Below, piece by piece: positions 10,266 through 20,271 of a DNA stretch of 45,813 nucleotides. Source of the stretch: an uncultured Clostridia bacterium. Its GTDB lineage: Bacteria > Bacillota > Clostridia > Acetivibrionales > CALMWN01. The translations under genes were made by a program, and so were the position numbers. The stretch is from NCBI GenBank assembly GCA_937873555.1, contig CALMWN010000410.1, positions 1 to 45,813 on the forward strand. Reading direction: 5' to 3'. A model generated the notes under the pieces. That model ran no database searches, had not been told where the DNA came from, and was given only the letters and a program-made list of their open reading frames with translations. Each line of letters begins with the position of its first letter. Within the stretch, counting starts at the first letter, position 1.

Positions 10266-11468
10266 CACCTGACTAAAACAAAATAAAACTATGAGATATG
10301 AAGATATTCAAGATTTAGGGGGGCTATATGAACGTTGTTTCTAAAATATTGAACAAATTTGATGAACAAGAAAAATTTAAATTAAATGTATCTATCTTTG
10401 ATTATAGTATAGAGATATTTAGCACAAGTCAAGAAGCTCTAAATTATTTAAAAGAATTATTTTACCCGGATAATACTAATTGCCTATCTCAAAATAAAGT
10501 GTTTTTAGGGAAGAGAGATTTACTTATTAAAAATATAAATATGGATGAAAGTGAACTTAAAGATATAATGCATAATATTATAATAAGTTGGATTTATTTA
10601 GGAATAGTTCATCCAATAAAAACTGCAGAAGTTAAAAAATATATATATAATTCTTGGCAAGCATACATACAGTCCAATAAAGATAAACATTCTAACCCTT
10701 ACATACTTTTCAAAAGAGAAAATGAAATAATTATCATAACGACTAAAGGTTTTAATAATTATAAATTGCTTTCCTGGATAGTACGAGAAATTGCTGGGCG
10801 CAGATTAGAGAATAATGGGTATTCCATTTTTCATGCAGGCGCAGTCAATATAAATGGCAAAGGAGTTGCAATTTTTGGTAATTCTGGTGCAGGAAAAACT
10901 ACTTTAGCTTTAGGTCTATGTAAATATGAAGGTGCAAAATATATTTCTAGCGACAGACTTTATATTAAGAACAACGATATTAATAATTGTTTAGAATCTA
11001 CATCATTTAGTTTTCCTATACGTATAAACTATGGAACTTTATTAACACTTCAAGAAATGAATAATTACGAAAAATGGAATTTGCAAACACCAGTTCCTGG
11101 CGAAGATACTACTTGGAAACAATTTGATGGTAAAGATAAGCTTGAGATTACACCTTATGAGCTCGAACAAAAATTATTATTACAAGTTAGCGCTAAAACA
11201 AACATTGATATTGTAATATTTTTGAATTTATTAACTAACTCAAATATGAACGAGTATATTTATGAGACTAATTCTGAACTTTTAGAGACAAATTGCTGGA
11301 CACCAACTGATCCATCATTCGCATATGATTGGCTGTCACAACGCAATATTTCTGATGAGTTACTTTTACATAGCTCAAAGAAGATCATTAATAGTCTAAT
11401 GAATTTAACAAATATTAAAGTTAAATATTCATTTTTACATTTCAGAGATTTATGTAAAGAAATAGCTA
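10266..11468. repeat. direct repeat copy 1 (1203 bp) containing the kinase-like gene
   Basis: Offset of exactly 2976 bp to 13242..14444. The encoded proteins are identical over 380 aa and the nucleotides matched wherever I spot-checked. Confidence 0.85.
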
Positions 11469-11479: not shown

Positions 11480-13054
11480 TAAAAACAGTTTTCATGAAGT
11501 AACATACTTCAGAAGTATAAATTTATTGATCTTTGACACTTGAATATGTGAGAAACCAGGCTCCTTTTGCTCCTTTATGCCATCATCTTGGCTACTTGCC
11601 TTAGATTATGGGCAAGAATACCCAAGCCGGTCCATATTTGCGTTTTCCGATATCTATTCAGCATGCTACAGTTTAATCCGAACCGGCGTTTTAAGCAACT
11701 AATACGGCCTTCGATTCCTGATCGCCATCGTTTTAATCGTCGGAATGTCGGAGTGTTTTCACATATATGGTTCGCTCTTTGGACTTTCTACCAATCTTGG
11801 GTATGCAAACATGCTTAACACCAGCTCCGTATGCTAATTCCTCATTGTCGGAATCTTAATATCCTCGATCAAGTGCCATCTCTGATGGGGCCTGACCGAA
11901 TAAGTCAACATGCTTTTGCAGAGCATCATTCACCAGAATTTTGTCGCATGGATTGCCCTTATACAGTTGGTAGCCTGTTATGATCCCGCCATCTACCTCC
12001 TGTATTTGTAACTTGTATCCGAATTCAACACGCTTCCCAAGCTTACCTTTGACAATGGGGCGGGCGTCAGGATATTTGAAACTGATAAGGCGGTCGGCAA
12101 GTTTTGTATTCCCGGCATTGACGGATTCGCTTTGTTCAATGATCTTACGGACCTTTTTGGCGGTGTCCAGCAAGTTACCACAGATCTTTCGGTCATTCTT
12201 TGTTTCAGGAATCAGCTTCTTTGCCAAACGGTCTGTCTGGATCAAGACTTTCCCGGCTTCTACGGCCATCTGTCCAGTGATTTTCCGAACTTTCGTGCGG
12301 GCATCCTCTGTTCTGCGGCGGAGTACCTTGTTGATGGACAGCAAGTGGTCCTTCATTTTACGAATCGATGTCGTACTTTGTAGGGAAGCCTTTCCACAAG
12401 CTTGTTTTATGCGGGTGACTGCTTTTGTTAGCTTTTTTAAGCCTTCGTAAAGCAGGCCGCATCCGTAGGGTGGACGATATTGGCCTCCACTACCGTTGAA
12501 TCAACCCGAGTCTTACGACCTTTTAGAGGTTTCATCTGCGCCAGGGATTTCAGCAGTTTTTGATTCATCTCTTCGATGACTTCCTCGCCATACTTGGTGG
12601 TAATTTTCATTAAGGCGGTAGGATCCGGTACTTTCTGCACAATTGGGATACGACAGAAAAATCGATACATGAGGTTATGAGTAACTTCGGGGGCAGATCT
12701 TCATAGCTCAGTCCAGTGTAATGCTTGAGAAACATCATGTGGATGTATACACGAGCCGGTACGGATGGGCGTCCACACTGGGTATTAAACCGATCAACGA
12801 TGGGATATTCGTATGATTTGTCCTGTAAATATTTAACAATCTTCTCAAGTTCGGGAGTAAGCCGGTATGTGGCTTCTGATATAAGGAATTGTGCTAGGGT
12901 TGGCTGATTCCAATCTGGATAATCGAGTATCAGCATAGCTATTACCTTTTGTAATTTTTGTATTGTGCTGTATTATTCGACATCTGGAGTTAAAATTTCT
13001 GCCTCAAACTCACTATATTCAAGGTTTTCAAGGATCATTTATCAGGTGAAACTA
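11469..13054 (-). mobile_element. IS5/IS1182-family insertion sequence with a degraded transposase
   Basis: Imperfect terminal inverted repeats (GATTGACCTGATAAA at the left, TTTATCAGGTGAAACTA at the right). Flanked by a 4-bp direct repeat (GCTA or CTAG, register ambiguous). Removing it restores the kinase reading frame. Confidence 0.65.
11560..12936 (-). pseudogene. IS5/IS1182-family DDE transposase, multiple frameshifts
   Basis: Collinear minus-strand ORF pieces (12610..12936, 12437..12670, 11856..12356 and a further out-of-frame tail). They carry CGRPSVPARVYIHMMFLKH (InsH N-terminal type) and DSTVVEANIVHPTDA. Confidence 0.7.
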
Positions 13055-13241: not shown

Positions 13242-14444
13242 CACCTGACTAAAACAAAATAAAACTATGAGATATGAAGATATTCAAGATTTAGGGGGGC
13301 TATATGAACGTTGTTTCTAAAATATTGAACAAATTTGATGAACAAGAAAAATTTAAATTAAATGTATCTATCTTTGATTATAGTATAGAGATATTTAGCA
13401 CAAGTCAAGAAGCTCTAAATTATTTAAAAGAATTATTTTACCCGGATAATACTAATTGCCTATCTCAAAATAAAGTGTTTTTAGGGAAGAGAGATTTACT
13501 TATTAAAAATATAAATATGGATGAAAGTGAACTTAAAGATATAATGCATAATATTATAATAAGTTGGATTTATTTAGGAATAGTTCATCCAATAAAAACT
13601 GCAGAAGTTAAAAAATATATATATAATTCTTGGCAAGCATACATACAGTCCAATAAAGATAAACATTCTAACCCTTACATACTTTTCAAAAGAGAAAATG
13701 AAATAATTATCATAACGACTAAAGGTTTTAATAATTATAAATTGCTTTCCTGGATAGTACGAGAAATTGCTGGGCGCAGATTAGAGAATAATGGGTATTC
13801 CATTTTTCATGCAGGCGCAGTCAATATAAATGGCAAAGGAGTTGCAATTTTTGGTAATTCTGGTGCAGGAAAAACTACTTTAGCTTTAGGTCTATGTAAA
13901 TATGAAGGTGCAAAATATATTTCTAGCGACAGACTTTATATTAAGAACAACGATATTAATAATTGTTTAGAATCTACATCATTTAGTTTTCCTATACGTA
14001 TAAACTATGGAACTTTATTAACACTTCAAGAAATGAATAATTACGAAAAATGGAATTTGCAAACACCAGTTCCTGGCGAAGATACTACTTGGAAACAATT
14101 TGATGGTAAAGATAAGCTTGAGATTACACCTTATGAGCTCGAACAAAAATTATTATTACAAGTTAGCGCTAAAACAAACATTGATATTGTAATATTTTTG
14201 AATTTATTAACTAACTCAAATATGAACGAGTATATTTATGAGACTAATTCTGAACTTTTAGAGACAAATTGCTGGACACCAACTGATCCATCATTCGCAT
14301 ATGATTGGCTGTCACAACGCAATATTTCTGATGAGTTACTTTTACATAGCTCAAAGAAGATCATTAATAGTCTAATGAATTTAACAAATATTAAAGTTAA
14401 ATATTCATTTTTACATTTCAGAGATTTATGTAAAGAAATAGCTA
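13242..14444. repeat. direct repeat copy 2 (1203 bp)
   Basis: See copy 1. Identity ends at the position equivalent to the IS insertion point in copy 1. Confidence 0.85.
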
Positions 14445-14464
14445 ACATTACCAGAAGTTTATAA
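13304..14464 (+). CDS. HPr-kinase-fold P-loop protein, copy 2 (intact)
   Basis: 386 aa, identical to copy 1 up to ...CKEIA, then the native end NITRSL. AGGGGGG lies 5 nt upstream of the ATG. Confidence 0.7.
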   Translation: MNVVSKILNKFDEQEKFKLNVSIFDYSIEIFSTSQEALNYLKELFYPDNTNCLSQNKVFLGKRDLLIKNINMDESELKDIMHNIIISWIYLGIVHPIKTAEVKKYIYNSWQAYIQSNKDKHSNPYILFKRENEIIIITTKGFNNYKLLSWIVREIAGRRLENNGYSIFHAGAVNINGKGVAIFGNSGAGKTTLALGLCKYEGAKYISSDRLYIKNNDINNCLESTSFSFPIRINYGTLLTLQEMNNYEKWNLQTPVPGEDTTWKQFDGKDKLEITPYELEQKLLLQVSAKTNIDIVIFLNLLTNSNMNEYIYETNSELLETNCWTPTDPSFAYDWLSQRNISDELLLHSSKKIINSLMNLTNIKVKYSFLHFRDLCKEIANITRSL

Positions 14465-14638: not shown

Positions 14639-14722
14639 ATGGATAAGAGAAGAAACTTTACACCCGAACAAAAAGCAAAAATCGTTATGGAAGTCTTACG
14701 GGAAGAAAGAACACTGAATTGA
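14639..14722 (+). pseudogene. IS3-family OrfA remnant (first 27 codons only)
   Basis: MDKRRNFTPEQKAKIVMEVLREERTLN followed by a stop, the N-terminal HTH of IS3/IS911-type OrfA. Confidence 0.55.
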
Positions 14723-14909
14723 TGAACCGGACAAACAATGGAAACCAAAAACGCATGCAGCAAGCAAAATTTCCTCAACACAAGAGCATGGAAGAATTTA
14801 ATTTCAACTATCAGCCAAGTATCAACCGCCAAACCATATATAACCTGGGTGCCTGCGAGTTCATCCGGAAGAATGAGAATATAGCCTTTATTGGTCCGAC
14901 CGGTACCGG
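14719..14909 (+). pseudogene. istB: IS21-family IstB helper ATPase, 5' fragment (5'-truncated, then interrupted in the Walker A motif)
   Basis: AKFPQHKSMEEFNFNYQPSINRQ...IAFIGPTGTG matches IstB up to the first half of the P-loop. Continuation is at 18427. Confidence 0.75.
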
Positions 14910-14925
14910 ATATGACAACATTTTA

Positions 14926-14992
14926 GTTATGTAAAGATTTTGCCGAGAATGCCAGTAATAATAGGAGCTTTTAGCAAAAAACTTTACATAAC
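14926..14992. repeat. left subterminal 67-bp palindromic module of the RIT element
   Basis: Bounded by GTTATGTAAAG (14926-14936) and CTTTACATAAC (14982-14992). Confidence 0.75.
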
Positions 14993-15068
14993 AGTTTAAT
15001 ATAAATATAGTTCAAGATAAATTTGATACATACTCCTTTTATCATATAAAATAAAGGAGTGTTGTCAA

Positions 15069-16304
15069 ATGACAGATCAAAAAACAATTCTTGAGCTGAT
15101 TGAAACCGTGAGCAAAGAGATGCGCGAGCTGGAGTATTCAGAAAAAACCCTGACATCATATGAAAAGGTTTGGAAGTCATTCAAAGCCTTTGCCAAAAAG
15201 AAAAACATCAATTTCTATTCAACCGAAGTTGGGCTTGCGTTTTTAGAGCAGAAGTGCAAATTCGTTTCCAAATACCCAGTAAAATATACTATGGAAGAAA
15301 AGGTAAGAGCAGTCAATAGGATTGACGAGTACTACAAATATAGCATAATTTCAACCAAAAGAGCTCATAGAAAAAAATATACTTTTCCGGAGGTGTTCAG
15401 GGAACAAGTCCACTCATATATAGTTTACAGAAAGACAGAAGGCTTATCGGATAGTCGGATTAAAGCCATCAGTGCATACATGGAGCGATTTACCAATTAT
15501 TTGTATGACATTGGCCTGCGAAAGATTGCAGAACTGGACGTCTCTCATATTCATGGTTTCATTGAATTCTCCACCAAATATACAGCTTCAACGGTCAGAA
15601 ACACCTTTACATGCCTACGGGGATTTTTATCCTTTATTCATGAGAAAGGCTACCTGGATAAGAATTTAACATTTATGATTCCATTAATACGCATAAGCAG
15701 AGAATGCACAATCCCCTCTGCATATTCAAAAGATGAAGTGGAAAAGATCCTTAATTGTATAGACAGATGCAATACCAAGGGAAAGCGCGATTATGCCATG
15801 CTGCTTCTTGCTGCAAGGCTGGGATTACGTGCTTCCGATATCTGCAGTTTGACTTTCACAAACTTGAATTGGGAACAGAATTTGATCGAAATAGTCCAGG
15901 AAAAAACAAAAAAGACATTGCAATTACCGTTGCTGAACGAAGTTGGTGATGCAATTATCGATTATCTGCATTTCCGTCCGAAAGTTCCACTCAAATATGT
16001 CTTTCTCAGGGTTGAAAATCCACCGGAAAAATTGCACAATCATTCCCTATACGAAATTGTGTCTAAATACATGAGCAGGGCTGGAGTTCACGTCCCACAA
16101 GGCAAAAAACATGGTCCTCATGCATTAAGACATTCTCTCAGCAGTATAATGTTGGAAAACAGAGTTCCTCTGCCGGTGATATCAGAGATATTATCACACA
16201 CCAACTCGGACACTACCAAAATATATTTAAAAATTGATATCTCCCAGCTCAGGGAATGTGCACTCGATGTGCCGGGGATTGAAAATTTGGGTATGGAGGT
16301 GTAA
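15069..16304 (+). CDS. tyrosine recombinase, first of trio (RitA position)
   Basis: 411 aa. C-terminal catalytic pattern ARLGLRASD...HALRHS...LSHTNSDTTKIYLK. Confidence 0.85.
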   Translation: MTDQKTILELIETVSKEMRELEYSEKTLTSYEKVWKSFKAFAKKKNINFYSTEVGLAFLEQKCKFVSKYPVKYTMEEKVRAVNRIDEYYKYSIISTKRAHRKKYTFPEVFREQVHSYIVYRKTEGLSDSRIKAISAYMERFTNYLYDIGLRKIAELDVSHIHGFIEFSTKYTASTVRNTFTCLRGFLSFIHEKGYLDKNLTFMIPLIRISRECTIPSAYSKDEVEKILNCIDRCNTKGKRDYAMLLLAARLGLRASDICSLTFTNLNWEQNLIEIVQEKTKKTLQLPLLNEVGDAIIDYLHFRPKVPLKYVFLRVENPPEKLHNHSLYEIVSKYMSRAGVHVPQGKKHGPHALRHSLSSIMLENRVPLPVISEILSHTNSDTTKIYLKIDISQLRECALDVPGIENLGMEV

Positions 16305-16309
16305 GAGTT

Positions 16310-17302
16310 ATGGTCAACATGAATATCAACAATGAAAATATAGCTTTTTACAAAAATCTCGTCGCGCAGTTCCTATCCTACAAACGGGCGCAGGGATACA
16401 AATATAAAGCAAACGAGGAAAGTTTGAACAGATTCATCAAGTTTTTAGTTGCCTTCGGACTGACGGAATGCCGACTCTCAAAGGAACTGGTTGAAGCATA
16501 TGCCATCAAGCGCCCCGACGAGGCACCCAAGAATCATGCAAACAGGGTAAGCGATTTTAGACAGTTCGTCATATATTTGAATGAGCTCGGGTACGAGGCA
16601 TATATTCCAACTGTAAGCAAGGTCTCAAAACGCTCATCATCCTTCGTCCCGTACATATTTACACATGATGAGATTTCAAGAATTTTTCAGGTGGTTGACA
16701 GGTTGAAGCCCAATTCACGTTACAACAGTGCGATTGTTTATCCGGTATTGATAAGAATGCTATACGGATGTGGTTTGAGAATTTCGGAAGCACTTGATTT
16801 GAGAGTGGGAGATGTAGATTTGGTCAATGGTGTCCTGACTATAAAAAAATCAAAATTTGATAAGGACAGGCTTATACCCATGTCGGAGTCTTTGAATTCC
16901 ATATGCAAAAGATTCCTCAAGCAGATGCACAAGAACTCAGCCGAAAATGACTACTTTTTTAAAAACAGAAATGGCAGCCGACGTAGTAAAAACACAGTAT
17001 ACCATCGATTTCGTGAAATTCTTTGGTCAAGTGGAATTTCTTACGGTGGTAAAGGCAAAGGGCCGAGACTTCATGATATGAGGCATGTATTTTGCTGTCA
17101 TTCATTAAAAGAAATCTCCGATAAAGGCATTGACTTGTACTGCGCATTACCGGTATTATCCACCTACCTGGGGCATAGTTCGGTAACGGCAACAGAAAAA
17201 TATCTCAGACTAACAGAGGAATTATACCCCGACATAATTAAACGCATGAATGGCACCACCTCGTATGTTTACCCGGAGGTGTATAAAGTTGAAGCCTACT
17301 GA
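16310..17302 (+). CDS. tyrosine recombinase, second of trio (RitB position)
   Basis: 330 aa. GCGLRISEAL...HDMRHVF...LGHSSVTATEKYLR. Confidence 0.85.
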   Translation: MVNMNINNENIAFYKNLVAQFLSYKRAQGYKYKANEESLNRFIKFLVAFGLTECRLSKELVEAYAIKRPDEAPKNHANRVSDFRQFVIYLNELGYEAYIPTVSKVSKRSSSFVPYIFTHDEISRIFQVVDRLKPNSRYNSAIVYPVLIRMLYGCGLRISEALDLRVGDVDLVNGVLTIKKSKFDKDRLIPMSESLNSICKRFLKQMHKNSAENDYFFKNRNGSRRSKNTVYHRFREILWSSGISYGGKGKGPRLHDMRHVFCCHSLKEISDKGIDLYCALPVLSTYLGHSSVTATEKYLRLTEELYPDIIKRMNGTTSYVYPEVYKVEAY

Positions 17303-18305
17303 TTTCGCATATTACCTTACTAATTTTCTGTCCAAATACCTGCCGTGCATTGAAGGATGTAGTGTGAATACGATTTCAGCTTATCGGGATGCGTTCAAAT
17401 TGCTGCTGATGTTTGCAAGGGAGAGGGAAGGCATAAAAGAGGAAAAACTGGAACTGTCTCTAATTGACAAAGCCTTCGTCATACGTTTTTTGTTATGGAT
17501 TGAAAATGAACGCGGTTGTGCTGTTATTACAAGAAATCAAAGGTTGGCTGCAATTCATGCGTTCTATTCGTATCTTCAAAGAGAATTGCCGGAACGCATG
17601 TACCAGCTTCAGGAGGTTTTATCAATACCCTTTAAAAAGCACCCACAGAAAACAGTAAATTTCTTCTCAACCGAAGGAATTAAAGCTCTTCTTGCGGAAC
17701 CAAACATAAATACAGAAAGCGGCCGAAAGCATCTTGTGCTTCTAAGCTTAATGTATGCAACCGGCAGCCGTGTACAGGAAATTGCTAATCTGACAGTATC
17801 GGATGTCATGTATAACGGTAATTCTCTTGTGAAGCTGACGGGAAAAGGAAACAAAAGCAGATTTGTACCTCTGGAGCCTCCTGTTGTTAAATTACTCTGC
17901 CAGTATCTCGAAGATTTTTCATTGATTGACCCTTTCAGAAGGATGGAATTGCTGTTTACAAATCACTCACAAAAAAAGTTAACGCGGCAAGGCATAACCC
18001 ATATTCTTAAAAAATATGCTGACAAAGTGAGAAAAAAGCGGCCTGAACTGATACCTGGAACCGTTTCACCGCATTGCCTTCGGCACTCACGAGCAGTCCA
18101 TTGGCTACAGGCTGGAGTGGATTTGATATACATCAGAGATTTATTGGGCCATACCAGTGTTCAAACCAGTGAAATTTATGCACGTATTGATGGGGAAATG
18201 AAAAGAAAAGCTTTAGAAAAAGTTTCTTCACATGCTATCCCAAATGAAATGCCGTCATGGCAAAAAGACAAATCATTAATGGAATGGTTGAAAGAATTGG
18301 ATTAA
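17250..18305 (+). CDS. tyrosine recombinase, third of trio (RitC position)
   Basis: 351 aa. ATGSRVQEI...HCLRHSRAVHW...LGHTSVQTSEIYAR. Overlaps the previous gene; exact start uncertain (17250, 17265 or 17289). Confidence 0.8.
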   Translation: MAPPRMFTRRCIKLKPTDFAYYLTNFLSKYLPCIEGCSVNTISAYRDAFKLLLMFAREREGIKEEKLELSLIDKAFVIRFLLWIENERGCAVITRNQRLAAIHAFYSYLQRELPERMYQLQEVLSIPFKKHPQKTVNFFSTEGIKALLAEPNINTESGRKHLVLLSLMYATGSRVQEIANLTVSDVMYNGNSLVKLTGKGNKSRFVPLEPPVVKLLCQYLEDFSLIDPFRRMELLFTNHSQKKLTRQGITHILKKYADKVRKKRPELIPGTVSPHCLRHSRAVHWLQAGVDLIYIRDLLGHTSVQTSEIYARIDGEMKRKALEKVSSHAIPNEMPSWQKDKSLMEWLKELD

Positions 18306-18315
18306 CTCGTTTATA

Positions 18316-18382
18316 GTTATGTAAAGTTTTTTGCTGGAGGTACTTGATATTATCAGTACTTTCAGCGAAATCTTTACATAAC
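18316..18382. repeat. right subterminal 67-bp palindromic module of the RIT element
   Basis: GTTATGTAAAG (18316-18326) and CTTTACATAAC (18372-18382), the same span as the left module. Confidence 0.75.
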
Positions 18383-18402
18383 CAAATACTTGTCATATCC
18401 GG

Positions 18403-18426
18403 CCTTATGTAAAGATTCACATAAGG
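18403..18426. repeat. 24-nt hairpin between two CCGG copies just outside the RIT right end
   Basis: CCTTATGTAAAGATTCACATAAGG has 8-bp arms and contains the TTATGTAAAGATT core also present in the RIT ends. It is flanked by CCGG at 18399-18402 and 18427-18430. Confidence 0.7.
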
Positions 18427-18947
18427 CCGGGAAAACCCACTTATCCATAGCAATCGGTATTAAAGCTGTTACTCAAGGGTACTCCGTTCTCTTTATCACT
18501 CTGAATGATATGTTAGAAGATCTATATATGTCCCGTGTGGATAATTCATTTGGGCAGCGCCTGAAAAAATATACACAGCCTGACTTATTGGTCATTGATG
18601 AATTGGGTCTTCGAAAGCTAAACCAGACTAGCGTGGATGACTTCTACGAAGTTATTGCAAAGCGTTATGAGCAACGTTCGACTATCATCACCTACAACAA
18701 GACTTTCGAGGAATGGGGCAAAATCCTCTTCGACCCAGTGTTAGCTACCGCTATTCTTGATAGATTCGTCCACTATTGTAATTTCATAGTCATCAATGGT
18801 GACAGTTACAGAATGCGGGAGCGTGAAGGACTTGTTTCTCACACTGGTAAACGAGGGAGACCAAGAAAATCAGCTGTCCCTGAAGAATTGTCCACTGATA
18901 ATGTCGGACTGGAAGTCGAAGAAACGGAGGAGGAAACATTAAGATGA
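18427..18947 (+). pseudogene. istB: IS21-family IstB, 3' part
   Basis: Joining ...GGTACCGG (14902-14909) to GAAAACCCAC (18431-18440) restores GPTGTGKTHLSIAIG (Walker A). Downstream LLVIDELG is the Walker B. Confidence 0.75.
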
Positions 18948-19246
18948 TAAATCCGACATATGAACAATTACTGGATTTTTACTATGATTTTCTTTCACGC
19001 CAGCAAGAGCAGGAACAAGAAGAACAGGATATTATCGAGTTACTGCAGGCATTATTACAAGGCTATCATCTTCTGTCAGATAACATTGTAGAACTTCGAG
19101 ACACGATTAACAAACAATGTGTTCAAATGACAAGGGCGGGTATTATTAAATATTGCAAATTGCCTTTCTATGATTTATACAGCGACATAGGAGAAAATTT
19201 TACGCATTACAAGGCATATCAGAGATTTGTGACTTATTTAGATTAA
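18944..19246 (+). CDS. hypothetical protein coupled to istB
   Basis: 100-aa ORF whose ATG overlaps the istB stop (ATGA). Gln/Glu-rich segment; no recognisable motif. Confidence 0.35.
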   Translation: MINPTYEQLLDFYYDFLSRQQEQEQEEQDIIELLQALLQGYHLLSDNIVELRDTINKQCVQMTRAGIIKYCKLPFYDLYSDIGENFTHYKAYQRFVTYLD

Positions 19247-19307: not shown

Positions 19308-19447
19308 CGCGAAAGCCTCTTGACAATGAGTAGGATGGCATGTTAGGCTCCCAAGCCAGGCATCAGCCATGCTACGAAGGATTTCTTACCTGTTCGGAAT
19401 GGGTGGTGCCGGTAGATGCCTGGTGACATGCCATCAGAGGCTCATTG
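19308..19447. repeat. about 140-bp imperfect palindrome (nested inverted repeats)
   Basis: Outer arms are CCTCTTGACAATGAG..ATGGCATGT (19308-19335) vs its complement at 19418-19447. Inner arms are CCAGGCATC (19348-19356) and GATGCCTGG (19407-19415). Appears GC-richer than its surroundings. Confidence 0.6.
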
Positions 19448-20037
19448 TCAAGAGGACCGTGGAATAAATGCGGTAAGAATGGGATCATACTCCGCCCAAA
19501 ACTGATCCCGTTTTTCCGCCCGATATTTTTAATATATTTTCGATACTTTTTGACCTGCTCAAATTTCTCCGCCTTTATTGCACTTTTTTTATTGACAACA
19601 ACAGAGTAGCCGATTCTGTGGACTAGATCATATAAACTGCCTGCTGCATAGTTGACACCAAACTTTCTATTAATCCATATTTTCAAGACCGACATGGTCC
19701 AGTTACTTTTGTTGAAGCCGTGTTCTCTGGGAGACTCCAAAAGTACCTGGTATACTTGAGCAAGTTGCTCATCCGTTAGTCGGCATAAAGGCCCCTTAGG
19801 TTTTTGAGGTATCAATCCATCAAGACCCAATGGATTATATCGGTTAAGCCACTCTCTTACTGTGGAATCTGATGTATTTAATAGCTCAGCTACTTTGAGG
19901 CTGGTGTAGCCTTCCATGAACTTGAGCATAGCGAGGTACCGGATTTTAAGGTCTGCATCGCTTGTCTCTCGGTAAAGTTTCTGGATTTGCTCATAGGTTG
20001 CATGCTTCATTTTTATTTCGACTTTTCTTCTGCTCAT
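19372..20037 (-). pseudogene. IS630-family transposase, N-terminal HTH part only
   Basis: The pattern LKFMEGYTSLKVAELLNTSDSTVREWLNRYN...LTDEQLAQV...NWTMSVLKIWI is typical of IS630 N-termini. The DDE domain is absent and the ORF tail looks out of frame. Confidence 0.6.
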
Positions 20038-20175: not shown

Positions 20176-20271
20176 GCTGTTAGTAGAAATTTACAAAGTC
20201 AAGTAGGTATAATGTAATAAAAGTGGTTTAGATTAAGTATACAGTTTAAATACATGGAGGCTTTAAGTAGT

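What the first reader, a model, noticed from the sequence alone, without database searches (positions are those of the whole stretch)
14719..18947. Complete recombinase-in-trio (RIT) element inserted precisely in the Walker-A codons of an IS21 istB gene
Three overlapping tyrosine-recombinase genes (411, 330 and 351 aa) sit between about 29-bp terminal inverted repeats. Each end also carries a 67-bp module bounded by inverted GTTATGTAAAG 11-mers (14926-14992 and 18316-18382), giving four copies of a likely recombinase-binding core. Joining the flanks restores GGT CCG ACC GGT ACC GGG AAA ACC CAC, which encodes GPTGTGKTH, the IstB P-loop. The insertion point is therefore defined to the base, and the element looks intact although its host IS is dead. 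RIT elements are a known class, but their mechanism and target choice are poorly understood. A copy with a reconstructable target is useful for that reason.
Basis: partly seen in the sequence, partly recalled or inferred. Interest (0 to 1): 0.6.

Follow-up and report, generated by a model that had tools for sequence, protein, structure and literature searches.

The report
Recombinase-trio element homing into istB
An intact three-recombinase (RIT) mobile element sits in the ATP-binding-loop codons of a dead IS21 helper gene, and about 40 related copies show this is the family's regular target, which gives this untested transposon class defined attachment sites.

Summary
Three intact tyrosine-recombinase genes (ritA 15069-16304, ritB 16310-17302, ritC 17289/17250-18305) lie between 87-nt imperfect inverted repeats. 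They interrupt an IS21 istB remnant exactly in the Walker A codons: GPTGTG | KTH.

The inserted DNA is 14910-18430 (3,521 bp), not just the repeat-bounded part.

The three proteins pair one-to-one with the RitA/B/C trio of Cupriavidus necator pHG1.

The position is not chance:
- In the close lineage, 18 different 5' flanks all end ...GxxGxGG|.
- Nine different 3' flanks all carry the same palindrome followed by GK[ST].
- More distant RITs from many phyla split IstB within 3 nt of the same place.
- The trio lies in either orientation, but the palindrome is always on the istB 3' side.

My model is site-specific recombination at arm-6 bp-arm core sites. The 6-bp spacers read like leftovers of earlier P-loop targets. 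The extra internal site explains the inverted, head-to-head and solo-palindrome forms seen in relatives. These mechanistic steps are inferred.

It is a new member of a known kind. I found no published target rule for RITs.

The parts
14640..14723 (+). 27-codon fragment resembling an IS3-type OrfA N-terminus (MDKRRNFTPEQKAKIVMEVLREERTLN*). It abuts the 5'-truncated istB. Context only.
   Evidence: Sequence read directly. No Pfam hit, because it is too short. The family assignment rests on my own knowledge.
14713..14909 (+). istB 5' fragment. It is truncated at its own 5' end and no istA lies upstream. It ends GGT CCG ACC GGT ACC GG (GPTGTG).
   Evidence: PF01695 positions 44-105, E 5e-15. NF038214 IS21_help_AAA positions 40-102. 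Frame shown.
14904..14909 (+). Left junction (attL) overlap, TACCGG. It is target-derived: the last base of a Gly codon, the Thr codon, and GG.
   Evidence: In 18 distinct relatives the same 6 nt read N+codon+GG.
14910..14919 (+). Left outer arm, ATATGACAAC. First base of the inserted DNA.
   Evidence: Homology with relatives begins here. It is the counterpart of TTATGCAAAG in distant RITs.
14926..14936 (+). Left inner arm, GTTATGTAAAG.
14982..14992 (-). Left third arm (GTTATGTAAAG on the minus strand). It closes the 67-bp module and overlaps a promoter-like -35 hexamer.
   Evidence: Promoter-like sites lie at 14983-15011 and 15023-15052 on the + strand. These are consensus matches only.
15069..16304 (+). 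ritA, 411 aa. Two N-terminal four-helix core-binding domains plus a catalytic domain.
   Evidence: PF00589, E 8e-31. pHG1 RitA: 31.5% identity, E 4e-63. AlphaFold model pLDDT 81, with helix bundles at 7-91 and 108-192. Nearest solved folds are XerA, XerH and XerD, covering only about 290 columns. Invariant residues R254, K279, H351, R354, H377, Y386.
16310..17302 (+). ritB, 330 aa.
   Evidence: PF00589, E 8e-29. pHG1 RitB: 40% identity, E 3e-86. Invariant residues R157, K182, H255, R258, H289, Y298.
17289..18305 (+). ritC, 338 aa. An upstream ATG at 17250 would give 351 aa. A conserved tail follows the catalytic Tyr.
   Evidence: PF00589, E 6e-29. pHG1 RitC: 46% identity, E 3e-105, aligned from residue 14. 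Gene calls of 338 aa. Invariant residues R161, H262, R265, H288, Y297. Conserved K305, R306, L309, E310, W324, W333, L334. Helix 302-313 in the model.
18316..18326 (+). Right third arm, GTTATGTAAAG.
18372..18382 (-). Right inner arm.
18389..18398 (-). Right outer arm (CTTGTCATAT, the reverse complement of ATATGACAAG).
18399..18404 (.). Spacer of internal 'site X', CCGGCC. Site X runs 18389-18414: outer arm, 6 bp, palindrome arm.
   Evidence: In 11 relatives the reverse complement reads N + Thr/Ser/Val/Ala/Gly codon + GG.
18405..18424 (.). 20-nt two-arm palindrome, TTATGTAAAG | ATTCACATAA. It is part of the element and always lies on the istB 3' side.
   Evidence: (I21, I22).
18425..18430 (+). 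Right junction (attR) overlap, GGCCGG. Last bases of the inserted DNA. It shares CCGG with attL.
18431..18947 (+). istB 3' fragment, G AAA ACC CAC... (KTHLSIAIG...), running to the stop codon.
   Evidence: PF01695 positions 103-235, E 2e-48. NF038214 positions 102-232.

Best explanation
Window 14910-18430 is one intact RIT (recombinase-in-trio) element. It integrated by tyrosine-recombinase site-specific recombination into the Walker A codons (GxxGxGG|N AAR) of an IS21 istB gene. This site is the regular target of its lineage.

Anatomy of the unit:
- Left end: outer arm, 6 nt, inner arm, about 45 nt, inverted third arm.
- Middle: ritA-ritB-ritC.
- Right end: the mirror image of the left end, followed by a 6-bp spacer and a 20-nt palindrome made of two more arms.

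This gives three core-type sites of the form arm-6 bp-arm:
- attL: istB 5' half, TACCGG, outer arm.
- Site X: outer arm, CCGGCC, palindrome arm. It is fully internal.
- attR: palindrome arm, GGCCGG, istB 3' half.

Shown:
- The identity of the genes.
- The exact anatomy.
- Recurrence of the same junction architecture at many different istB genes, in both trio orientations.
- Near-identical elements in different istB genes.

Inferred:
1. attL x attR excises a circle. Its junction is a symmetric double site (X, palindrome, Y). Either half can recombine with a new Walker A site, which would explain the random trio orientation.
2. Strand exchange occurs across the 6 bp ending in GG and tolerates mismatches, so 6 bp of each old target travel with the element. 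These behave like the coupling sequences of Tn916.
3. X x attL recombination inverts the body in cis. In trans it joins two IS21 copies head to head.
4. The three recombinases divide the work between the element arms and the two unrelated target half-sites.

The host IS21 here was already, or has since become, a dead remnant.
For: Identity:
- Pfam and NCBIfam hits.
- One-to-one matches to the pHG1 trio.
- RitA double core-binding domain and RitC tail.
- Catalytic R-K-H-R-H-Y residues invariant in all three alignments.

Boundaries:
- Homology with relatives that are 75-82% identical at the DNA level starts at 14908-14910 and ends at about 18400.
- The palindrome recurs next to it in every 3' junction.

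Target rule:
- 18 distinct 5' flanks end GxxGxGG|, with invariant GG at -17/-16, -8/-7 and -2/-1.
- 9 distinct 3' flanks begin GK[ST] after the palindrome.
- In RITs with only 33-36% RitA identity, from Bacillota, Actinomycetota, Desulfobacterota-type MAGs, Armatimonadota, Planctomycetota and others, tblastn splits IstB at residue 63/64 of the window's restored protein in more than 20 loci.
- L001, L092, L096, L097 and L099 show istA upstream of the split istB, so these are true IS21 elements.

Independent events:
- Element ends are 92-98% identical while flanks are unrelated.
- Contigs from run X1 carry the Acetobacterium-type element, with 11 differences in 3,485 nt, in a third istB. Intact empty istB sites are also present.

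Orientation: about 9 co-oriented and 7 opposite, with the palindrome always on the 3' side.

Spacers: 20 of 21 X-spacer or attR codons are Thr, Ser, Val, Ala or Gly, the residues allowed at x in GxGK. L098 has TACAGG at both junctions.

Predicted rearrangement products exist:
- Two different 5' halves head to head without a palindrome: L097 (also L003, L004, L094).
- Palindrome plus 3' half on both sides: L007.
- Solo palindrome between two 3' halves: L009.
Against: - No experiment and no read data exist for this organism.
- The exact RitA was found only at this same locus, in three assemblies. There is therefore no second copy or empty site for this very element, and it may be fixed and inactive here.
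- No circle junction was found: the pattern scan gave 0 hits, and Nielsen et al. could not find RIT circle junctions in mobilome reads (PMC5737581).
- The codon-like spacers could reflect a homology requirement rather than inheritance from old targets.
- Contigs with identical inverted flanks (L003, L004, L094) could be assembly paths through an inversion polymorphism.
- The 80 loci are the best matches to my query alignment, so the share of istB-targeting RITs is biased upward.
Confidence: 0.8

Rival explanations
1. Chance insertion. The RIT transposes with little site preference and happened to land in a P-loop codon of a dead IS.
For: Only one copy of this exact element is seen. The literature lists RIT target specificity as not tested (PMC10214605).
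Against: 18 distinct 5' flanks and 9 distinct 3' flanks in the close lineage are all at the same position of GxxGxGK[ST]. More than 20 further loci in distant lineages show the same.
Confidence: 0.02
2. One ancient insertion. An IS21::RIT composite arose once and spread or diverged with its IS21, so the shared position reflects descent, not targeting.
For: Some loci share flanks (L090/L091, L098/L100, L076/L080). IS21 is itself mobile and multicopy.
Against: - Flanking IstB sequences are far more diverged than the elements: element ends are 92-98% identical while flanks are unrelated, and the 3' halves read GKTHLSIAIG, GKSFIACALG, GKTYMACALG and so on.
- A near-identical element sits in three different istB genes.
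- Both trio orientations occur.
- Splitting the Walker A box should abolish IstB function, which IS21 transposition needs (established knowledge of IS21). The composite could not spread by itself.
Confidence: 0.03
3. The element ends at the inverted repeats (14910-18398/18402). The 28-32 bp palindrome is something else: a footprint of an earlier visit, a separate miniature element or a terminator.
For: - The palindrome lies outside the long inverted repeat.
- A solo palindrome exists without any RIT (L009).
- Head-to-head forms lack it (L097).
Against: - It is present at every canonical 3' junction, across lineages whose arm sequences have co-varied with it. Examples are TTATGGAAAG|CTTTCCATAA next to GGAAAG-type arms, and TTATGTAAAG next to GTAAAG-type arms.
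- Intact empty istB sites have no palindrome.
- No T-run follows it, and the terminator scan found none.
- The solo and palindrome-less forms are the reciprocal products expected if it is one of the element's recombination sites.
Confidence: 0.08
4. Domesticated switch. The RIT is kept as a reversible interrupter of istB. Precise excision would restore IstB (GTGK or GAGK) and re-arm IS21. It is not a selfish transposon.
For: Removal restores the frame exactly. Both possible overlaps give a valid P-loop. Promoter-like sites overlap an arm.
Against: Here the IS21 is irreparably truncated. The same family also targets group II intron reverse transcriptase, IstA, Walker B and recombinase genes. 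That fits a parasite of mobile elements better than a regulator of one.
Confidence: 0.04

Closest known systems
RIT (recombinase in trio) elements of Cupriavidus metallidurans CH34 and C. necator pHG1 (Van Houdt et al. 2009/2012, PMC3414803; Ricker et al. 2013, not held in the library)
   Same: - Three co-directional tyrosine recombinase genes in the order RitA-RitB-RitC, about 3.5 kb, with flanking inverted repeats.
- One-to-one protein matches.
- The pHG1 copy also has a palindrome (GCGCAAATGTGCTGCAGCACATTTGCGC) next to one end. [quoted passage not shown]
   Different: - Only 31-46% protein identity.
- Different arm sequence (TTATGTAAAG).
- Low-GC uncultured host.
- A defined target (istB Walker A). 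The papers I could read do not report such a target: target specificity is listed as 'NT' in PMC10214605, Table 1.
Tn916/Tn1549 and CTnDOT integrases (conjugative transposons with coupling sequences or heterologous overlaps)
   Same: - Tyrosine recombinase.
- An inferred 6-bp staggered exchange that tolerates mismatched overlaps.
- 6 bp next to the ends that differ between the two junctions and look like sequence carried from a previous site.
   Different: - Those elements use one integrase plus Xis, have arm-type sites and carry conjugation genes.
- Their targets are AT-rich or loosely defined, not a coding motif.
- Carry-over in RIT is inferred from sequence patterns only.
Tn554 (TnpA, TnpB, TnpC) and GInt/SE elements (three or four recombinase-related genes)
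   Same: Small integrative elements with several tyrosine recombinases, high site specificity and no target duplication. Tn554-like and some RIT elements hit radC (PMC3414803).
   Different: - Different recombinase subgroups (PMC8138268).
- They include a non-recombinase partner (TnpC, GinD or Srap).
- No long inverted repeats and no end palindrome.
XerCD-dependent integrative elements (such as CTX phage) and integron attC sites
   Same: Xer-like simple recombinases (the nearest folds are XerA, XerH and XerD). Palindromic paired sites could form a folded substrate.
   Different: Those use host recombinases and the chromosomal dif site, or single-stranded folded sites. Nothing here shows a single-stranded intermediate.
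Homing elements of conserved motifs (inteins, homing endonuclease genes, group II introns)
   Same: The target is DNA that cannot drift because it encodes an essential protein motif. P-loops are classic intein sites. This is a conceptual likeness only.
   Different: The RIT is not spliced out of RNA or protein, so it inactivates its host gene. Its chemistry is conservative site-specific recombination.

Membership tests
RIT element | Three adjacent, co-directional tyrosine recombinase genes with short gaps or overlaps | tested here: met
   15069-16304, 16310-17302 and 17289-18305, all with PF00589. The gap is 5 nt and the overlap 14 nt.
RIT element | Each gene belongs to its own subfamily, in the order RitA, RitB, RitC | tested here: met
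   blastp against the pHG1 trio gives A-A 4e-63, B-B 3e-86 and C-C 3e-105. Cross-subfamily hits are between 1e-5 and 1e-13. The same order holds in about 80 loci.
RIT element | Catalytic R...K...HxxR...H...Y in all three proteins | tested here: met
   Invariant columns: RitA R254, K279, H351, R354, H377, Y386. RitB R157, K182, H255, R258, H289, Y298. RitC R161, H262, R265, H288, Y297.
RIT element | RitA has two sequential core-binding domains (PMC8138268) | tested here: met
   AlphaFold2 model, pLDDT 81. There are four-helix bundles at 7-91 and 108-192 before the catalytic domain. Solved Xer structures align to only about 290 columns.
RIT element | RitC has an extra conserved C-terminal helix (PMC8138268) | tested here: met
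   A tail of about 40 residues after Y297 has nearly invariant K305, R306, L309, E310, W324, W333 and L334. The model has a helix at 302-313, but pLDDT there is only 50-65.
RIT element | Flanking imperfect inverted repeats; unit of about 3.5 kb | tested here: met
   87-nt arms, 77% complementary. The inserted DNA is 3,521 bp.
RIT element | Mobility as a unit (multiple identical copies, different sites) | tested here: inconclusive
Relatives are clearly at many different sites.
IS21 family (host element) | IstB helper ATPase with Walker A, encoded downstream of istA | tested here: not met
   The IstB domain is present in two pieces: PF01695 positions 44-105 and 103-235. NF038214 scores 61.7 and 166.6 bits against a cutoff of 200. 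But istA and the first 43 or so profile positions are absent. It is a remnant, not an IS21. Intact istA-istB::RIT arrangements exist in L001, L092, L097 and L099.
Tn916-like 'coupling sequence' mechanism | 6-7 bp of flanking DNA carried in the circle junction as a heteroduplex | not testable with these tools
   Indirect only. The spacers read like old P-loop codons. No circle junction was found.

The most novel reading that the evidence does not exclude
RIT elements are obligate homing 'hyperparasites' of other mobile elements. Each lineage recognises DNA that encodes an invariant protein motif. Examples are IstB Walker A here and, in the retrieved relatives, IstB Walker B, IstA, the group II intron reverse transcriptase motif PQGG and the recombinase motif HxLRH.

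In this reading they move through a circle whose junction is a symmetric double core site (X, palindrome, Y). The 6-bp overlaps are inherited from earlier targets. The trio exists because one recombinase reads the element arms and the other two read the two unrelated halves of the target.

The internal site X would also make RITs engines of inversion and fusion between copies of their host IS.
Probability: 0.35. Interest if true: 0.75.

Novelty: new member of a known kind. Interest (0 to 1): 0.6.

Why it matters
RIT elements have been catalogued since 2009 and are very common. RitA alone has 1,688 representatives at 50% identity with E below 1e-30. Yet no transposition assay, attachment site or target rule appears in the literature I could search. 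A 2023 comparison table still lists their target specificity, empty-site formation and mode of movement as 'not tested' (PMC10214605).

This copy and its relatives supply what a bench test needs:
- a roughly 25-bp target (GGNCCNACNGGNNNNGG|NAARWC);
- exact left and right junctions;
- an internal third site;
- a predicted circle junction;
- predicted rearrangement products.

It also shows a mobile element that systematically disables another one (IS21) and can fuse its copies. That bears on how insertion sequences are kept in check, and on mis-assemblies around them.

If the target arms are read by dedicated Rit subunits, the trio could be a natural example of a multi-subunit, retargetable tyrosine recombinase.

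Tried and rejected
- The exact inverted-repeat pattern in genome contigs gave 0 hits. The source genome is not in that collection.
- The whole element against plasmids with blastn gave no match.
- The look-up of sequencing runs found no run for the element or for the neighbouring metG. No reads could be laid, so excision and inversion could not be tested in this organism.
- An exact RitA look-up found only the same locus, in three metagenome assemblies.
- A pattern for the predicted circle junction (outer arm, 6-7 nt, palindrome, 7-8 nt, outer arm) in genome contigs gave 0 hits.
- I tested whether the asymmetry of the palindrome's centre (G-arm left or right) follows trio orientation. It does not (n=8, read), so it cannot discriminate integration through X or Y from later inversion.
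- I considered the 1-mismatch arms at 11449 and 14425, and the 29-nt repeat D3, as extra sites. I rejected them as probable chance, because they lie inside unrelated ORFs and have no partner.
- The 'opposite strands' joint 242/3815 has only 33 nt on its shorter side. I read it as paralogous istB sequence, not as an inversion.
- Ricker et al. 2013 (Plasmid 70:226) is not held. I cannot exclude that it already comments on insertion sites.

Full report
**What is there**

The stretch 14719-18947 holds three open reading frames on the + strand: 411 aa (15069-16304), 330 aa (16310-17302) and 351 aa (17250-18305). Each is a full-length Phage_integrase protein with E 6e-29 to 8e-31. NCBIfam finds only sub-threshold Xer-like matches.

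They lie between inverted repeats 14906-14992 and 18316-18402 (87 nt, 77% complementary). With one mismatch allowed the window has 7 hits against 1.46 expected, and no shuffle of 100 reaches 7.

The flanking ORF pieces are IstB: Pfam PF01695 positions 44-105 on the left and 103-235 on the right. Joining base 14909 to base 18431 gives ...NIAFIGPTGTGKTHLSIAIG....

The host IS is a wreck. There is no istA, istB lacks about its first 43 profile positions, and an IS3-OrfA-like 27-codon fragment abuts it.

**The correction**

The right inverted repeat ends with GTCATAT at 18398, but the istB frame resumes only at 18431. In between lie:
- CCGGCC (18399-18404);
- TTATGTAAAG ATTCACATAA (18405-18424);
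- GGCCGG (18425-18430).

Together these form a 12-bp-stem palindrome (DNA fold -13.5 kcal/mol, z = -6.5). The inserted DNA is therefore 14910-18430, or 3,521 bp. The crossover point is ambiguous within the CCGG shared by both junctions.

**Is it a RIT?**

The C. necator pHG1 megaplasmid is named in PMC3414803 as rich in RITs. It has a trio at 51476-54721.

The window's proteins match it one to one: A-A 31.5% with E 4e-63, B-B 40% with E 3e-86, C-C 46% with E 3e-105. Cross-subfamily matches are no better than E 1e-13.

The catalytic residues are invariant in alignments of 37 RitA, 32 RitB and 50 RitC sequences.

PMC8138268 defines RitA by two sequential core-binding domains and RitC by an extra C-terminal helix.
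- The RitA model (pLDDT 81) has four-helix bundles at 7-91 and 108-192 before the catalytic domain. Solved Xer-type structures cover only about 290 of its 411 residues.
- RitC has a conserved tail of about 40 residues after the catalytic Tyr, with a modelled helix at 302-313 of modest confidence.

RitC most likely starts at 17289 (338 aa), as in the gene calls of three assemblies and in the pHG1 alignment.

**The position is a rule, not an accident**

Relatives were fetched from species-representative genomes and metagenomes.

In the close lineage (RitA 75-90% identical) I found 18 different left-hand flanks. All of them end ...GG NNN NNN GG NNN GG| directly against the outer arm and read GxxGxG: GPTGVG, GKTGSG, GATGGG, GNVGTG, GEPGVG and so on.

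I also found nine different right-hand flanks. They all read, in target orientation: outer arm | 6-7 nt | 20-nt two-arm palindrome | 6 nt ending GG | N AAR = GK[ST].

With RitA only 33-36% identical, more than 20 further loci from many phyla split IstB at residue 63/64 of the window's restored protein. There the junction is GGN AA|TTATGCAAAG, 3 nt further downstream than in the close lineage. The palindrome co-varies with the local arm sequence, for example TTATGGAAAG|CTTTCCATAA.

Several of these targets are complete istA-istB units.

**These are independent events**
- Element ends are 92-98% identical between loci whose flanks are unrelated.
- Contigs of public runs laid on the Acetobacterium wieringae copy show the same element, with 11 differences in 3,485 nt, inside a third istB (IIIAGATGTG|...|KSYIACALGM). 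Uninterrupted istB-1 and istB-2 sites are also present.
- The trio is co-oriented with istB in about nine loci and opposite in about seven. The palindrome is always on the istB 3' side.

**How it most likely works**

*Shown by sequence.* There are three sites of the classical tyrosine-recombinase form, a 10-nt arm, 6 bp and a 10-nt arm. In the window they are:
- attL: target left half, TACCGG, ATATGACAAC.
- Site X: CTTGTCATAT, CCGGCC, TTATGTAAAG. It is wholly internal.
- attR: ATTCACATAA, GGCCGG, target right half.

*Inferred.*
- attL x attR would release a circle whose junction is the mirror-symmetric X-palindrome-Y. Either half could recombine with a new Walker A site, so the element has no preferred orientation.
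- The 6-bp spacers are not arbitrary. In 20 of 21 X or attR spacers the middle three bases are a Thr, Ser, Val, Ala or Gly codon followed by GG, which is what precedes the junction in real targets. About a third of codons would qualify by chance.
- In L098 both junctions carry TACAGG. In others attL and attR share only the GG.
- In the distant lineage the third base of GGN differs among attL, X and attR (L053: T/G/C; L076: attL = X = T, attR = C).
- I read this as exchange across a 6-bp overlap that tolerates heterology, so that each target leaves 6 bp on the element, as with Tn916 coupling sequences. A requirement for homology with typical targets is the alternative.

*Site X makes further predictions, and relatives meet them.*
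- X x attL within one copy inverts the body. This fits the orientation data, and it fits contigs whose two flanks are the same 5' half in inverted order with a single difference inside the overlap (L003; also L004 and L094).
- X of one copy x attL of another gives a palindrome-less RIT between two different istB 5' halves. L097 shows this, with istA upstream.
- The reciprocal product is a RIT with palindrome plus 3' half on both sides, as in L007.
- Deletion from that form leaves a solo palindrome between two 3' halves, as in the 641-bp contig L009.

Why three recombinases is unknown. My guess is that one reads the element arms and two read the dissimilar target halves.

Two promoter-like sites precede ritA, and one overlaps an arm. 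These are consensus matches only.

**What I could not do**

No sequencing run holding this stretch was served. The exact RitA occurs only at this same locus, in three metagenome assemblies.

So nothing shows that this particular copy still moves, although all three genes and all sites look intact. A scan for the predicted circle junction found nothing. Nielsen et al. likewise saw RIT DNA enriched in a mobilome but found no circle junction (PMC5737581).

**Comparison with what is known**

RITs are a described class (PMC3414803, PMC8138268). The inverted repeat and an 'overlapping palindromic sequence' at one end were noted in 2012 without interpretation, and the pHG1 copy I fetched shows such a palindrome too.

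Reported insertion sites were anecdotal: a Tn6049-like transposase gene, and radC of an ICE. A 2023 table still gives RIT target specificity, empty-site formation and mode of movement as not tested (PMC10214605). My full-text searches found no paper linking RIT with IstB. Ricker et al. 2013 is not held.

Earlier notes of this scan describe the same homing idea in other genomes. I reached it from the data before reading them, and I treat them as unverified.

**Verdict**

The element is a new member of a known kind.

Its value is that, together with its relatives, it defines the target, the true ends and a testable recombination scheme for a widespread but experimentally untouched transposon class. 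RitA has 1,688 representatives at E below 1e-30.

Noticed in passing
L016, L017, L025, L036, L051, L052, L061, L064, L066, L078 (junctions printed): Another RIT lineage is inserted at ...CCN CAR GGN GG| of genes reading GxPQGG|xxSPLLAN, the conserved reverse-transcriptase motif of group II intron or retron-type proteins. The two-arm palindrome is always on the PQGG (5') side, again whatever the trio orientation.
   Followed up: partly
L028 (Fundicoccus), L056 (Oceanobacillus), L030: These RITs split IstB at residues 120-122 of the window's protein. That is the Walker B box (VIDELG), not Walker A. In L028 the element lies between two inverted 3' parts.
   Followed up: partly
L021 3195-5356; L065, L069: In L021 a RIT is nested in the ritC gene of another RIT, at the HxLRH motif. 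In L065 and L069 the RIT abuts ...GLRH| of an integrase-like gene. In L015 the flank reads KKG|RIENGIGYIKGNF, which looks like IstA. In L013 and L014 the flank reads KFKPEHLGQLNFYV, which looks like a DUF1016/YhcG-type nuclease. The family names come from my reading of the motifs and were not searched.
   Followed up: no
L009 1-641 and L007 200-3900 (Acetobacterium wieringae DSM 1911): A 641-bp contig joins the 3' halves of two different istB genes head to head through one solo palindrome (TTGCCATTATGTGAATCTTTACATAATGGCAA). In the same genome a RIT has this palindrome and an istB 3' half on both sides.
   Followed up: partly
L076 and L080 (Smithellaceae MAG chromosome OY821638.1, 2.17 and 4.93 Mb): Two RIT copies in one chromosome sit in near-identical IS21 copies. 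The Gly codon at the right junction is GGC in one and GGT in the other, while the left junction and site X carry GGT in both.
   Followed up: no
L109 3250-3460 and 6695-6900 (pHG1): The reference pHG1 RIT has a 28-nt palindrome, GCGCAAATGTGCTGCAGCACATTTGCGC, just outside its left inverted repeat (GCGCTATTACCGGCCG...). This is the same layout as here, with unrelated sequence.
   Followed up: no
window 13304-14464: A 386-aa ORF has only faint P-loop-type matches (HPr kinase C-terminal domain, 24.8 bits, below cutoff; ABC_tran). Its function is unknown. It lies directly upstream of the IS debris.
   Followed up: no
window 11856-12936 and 19372-20037: More IS debris surrounds the site. On the minus strand, frameshifted ORFs look like an IS5/IS1182-type transposase; this is my reading, as Pfam found nothing for two of them. 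A 221-aa protein consists only of helix-turn-helix domains (HTH_32, HTH_33, HTH_23) and looks like the N-terminal half of an IS630-type transposase. metG follows at 20254.
   Followed up: no
window 18944-19246: A 100-aa ORF overlaps the istB stop codon by 4 nt. It has no Pfam match. It is conserved in position in all three assemblies that carry this locus.
   Followed up: no
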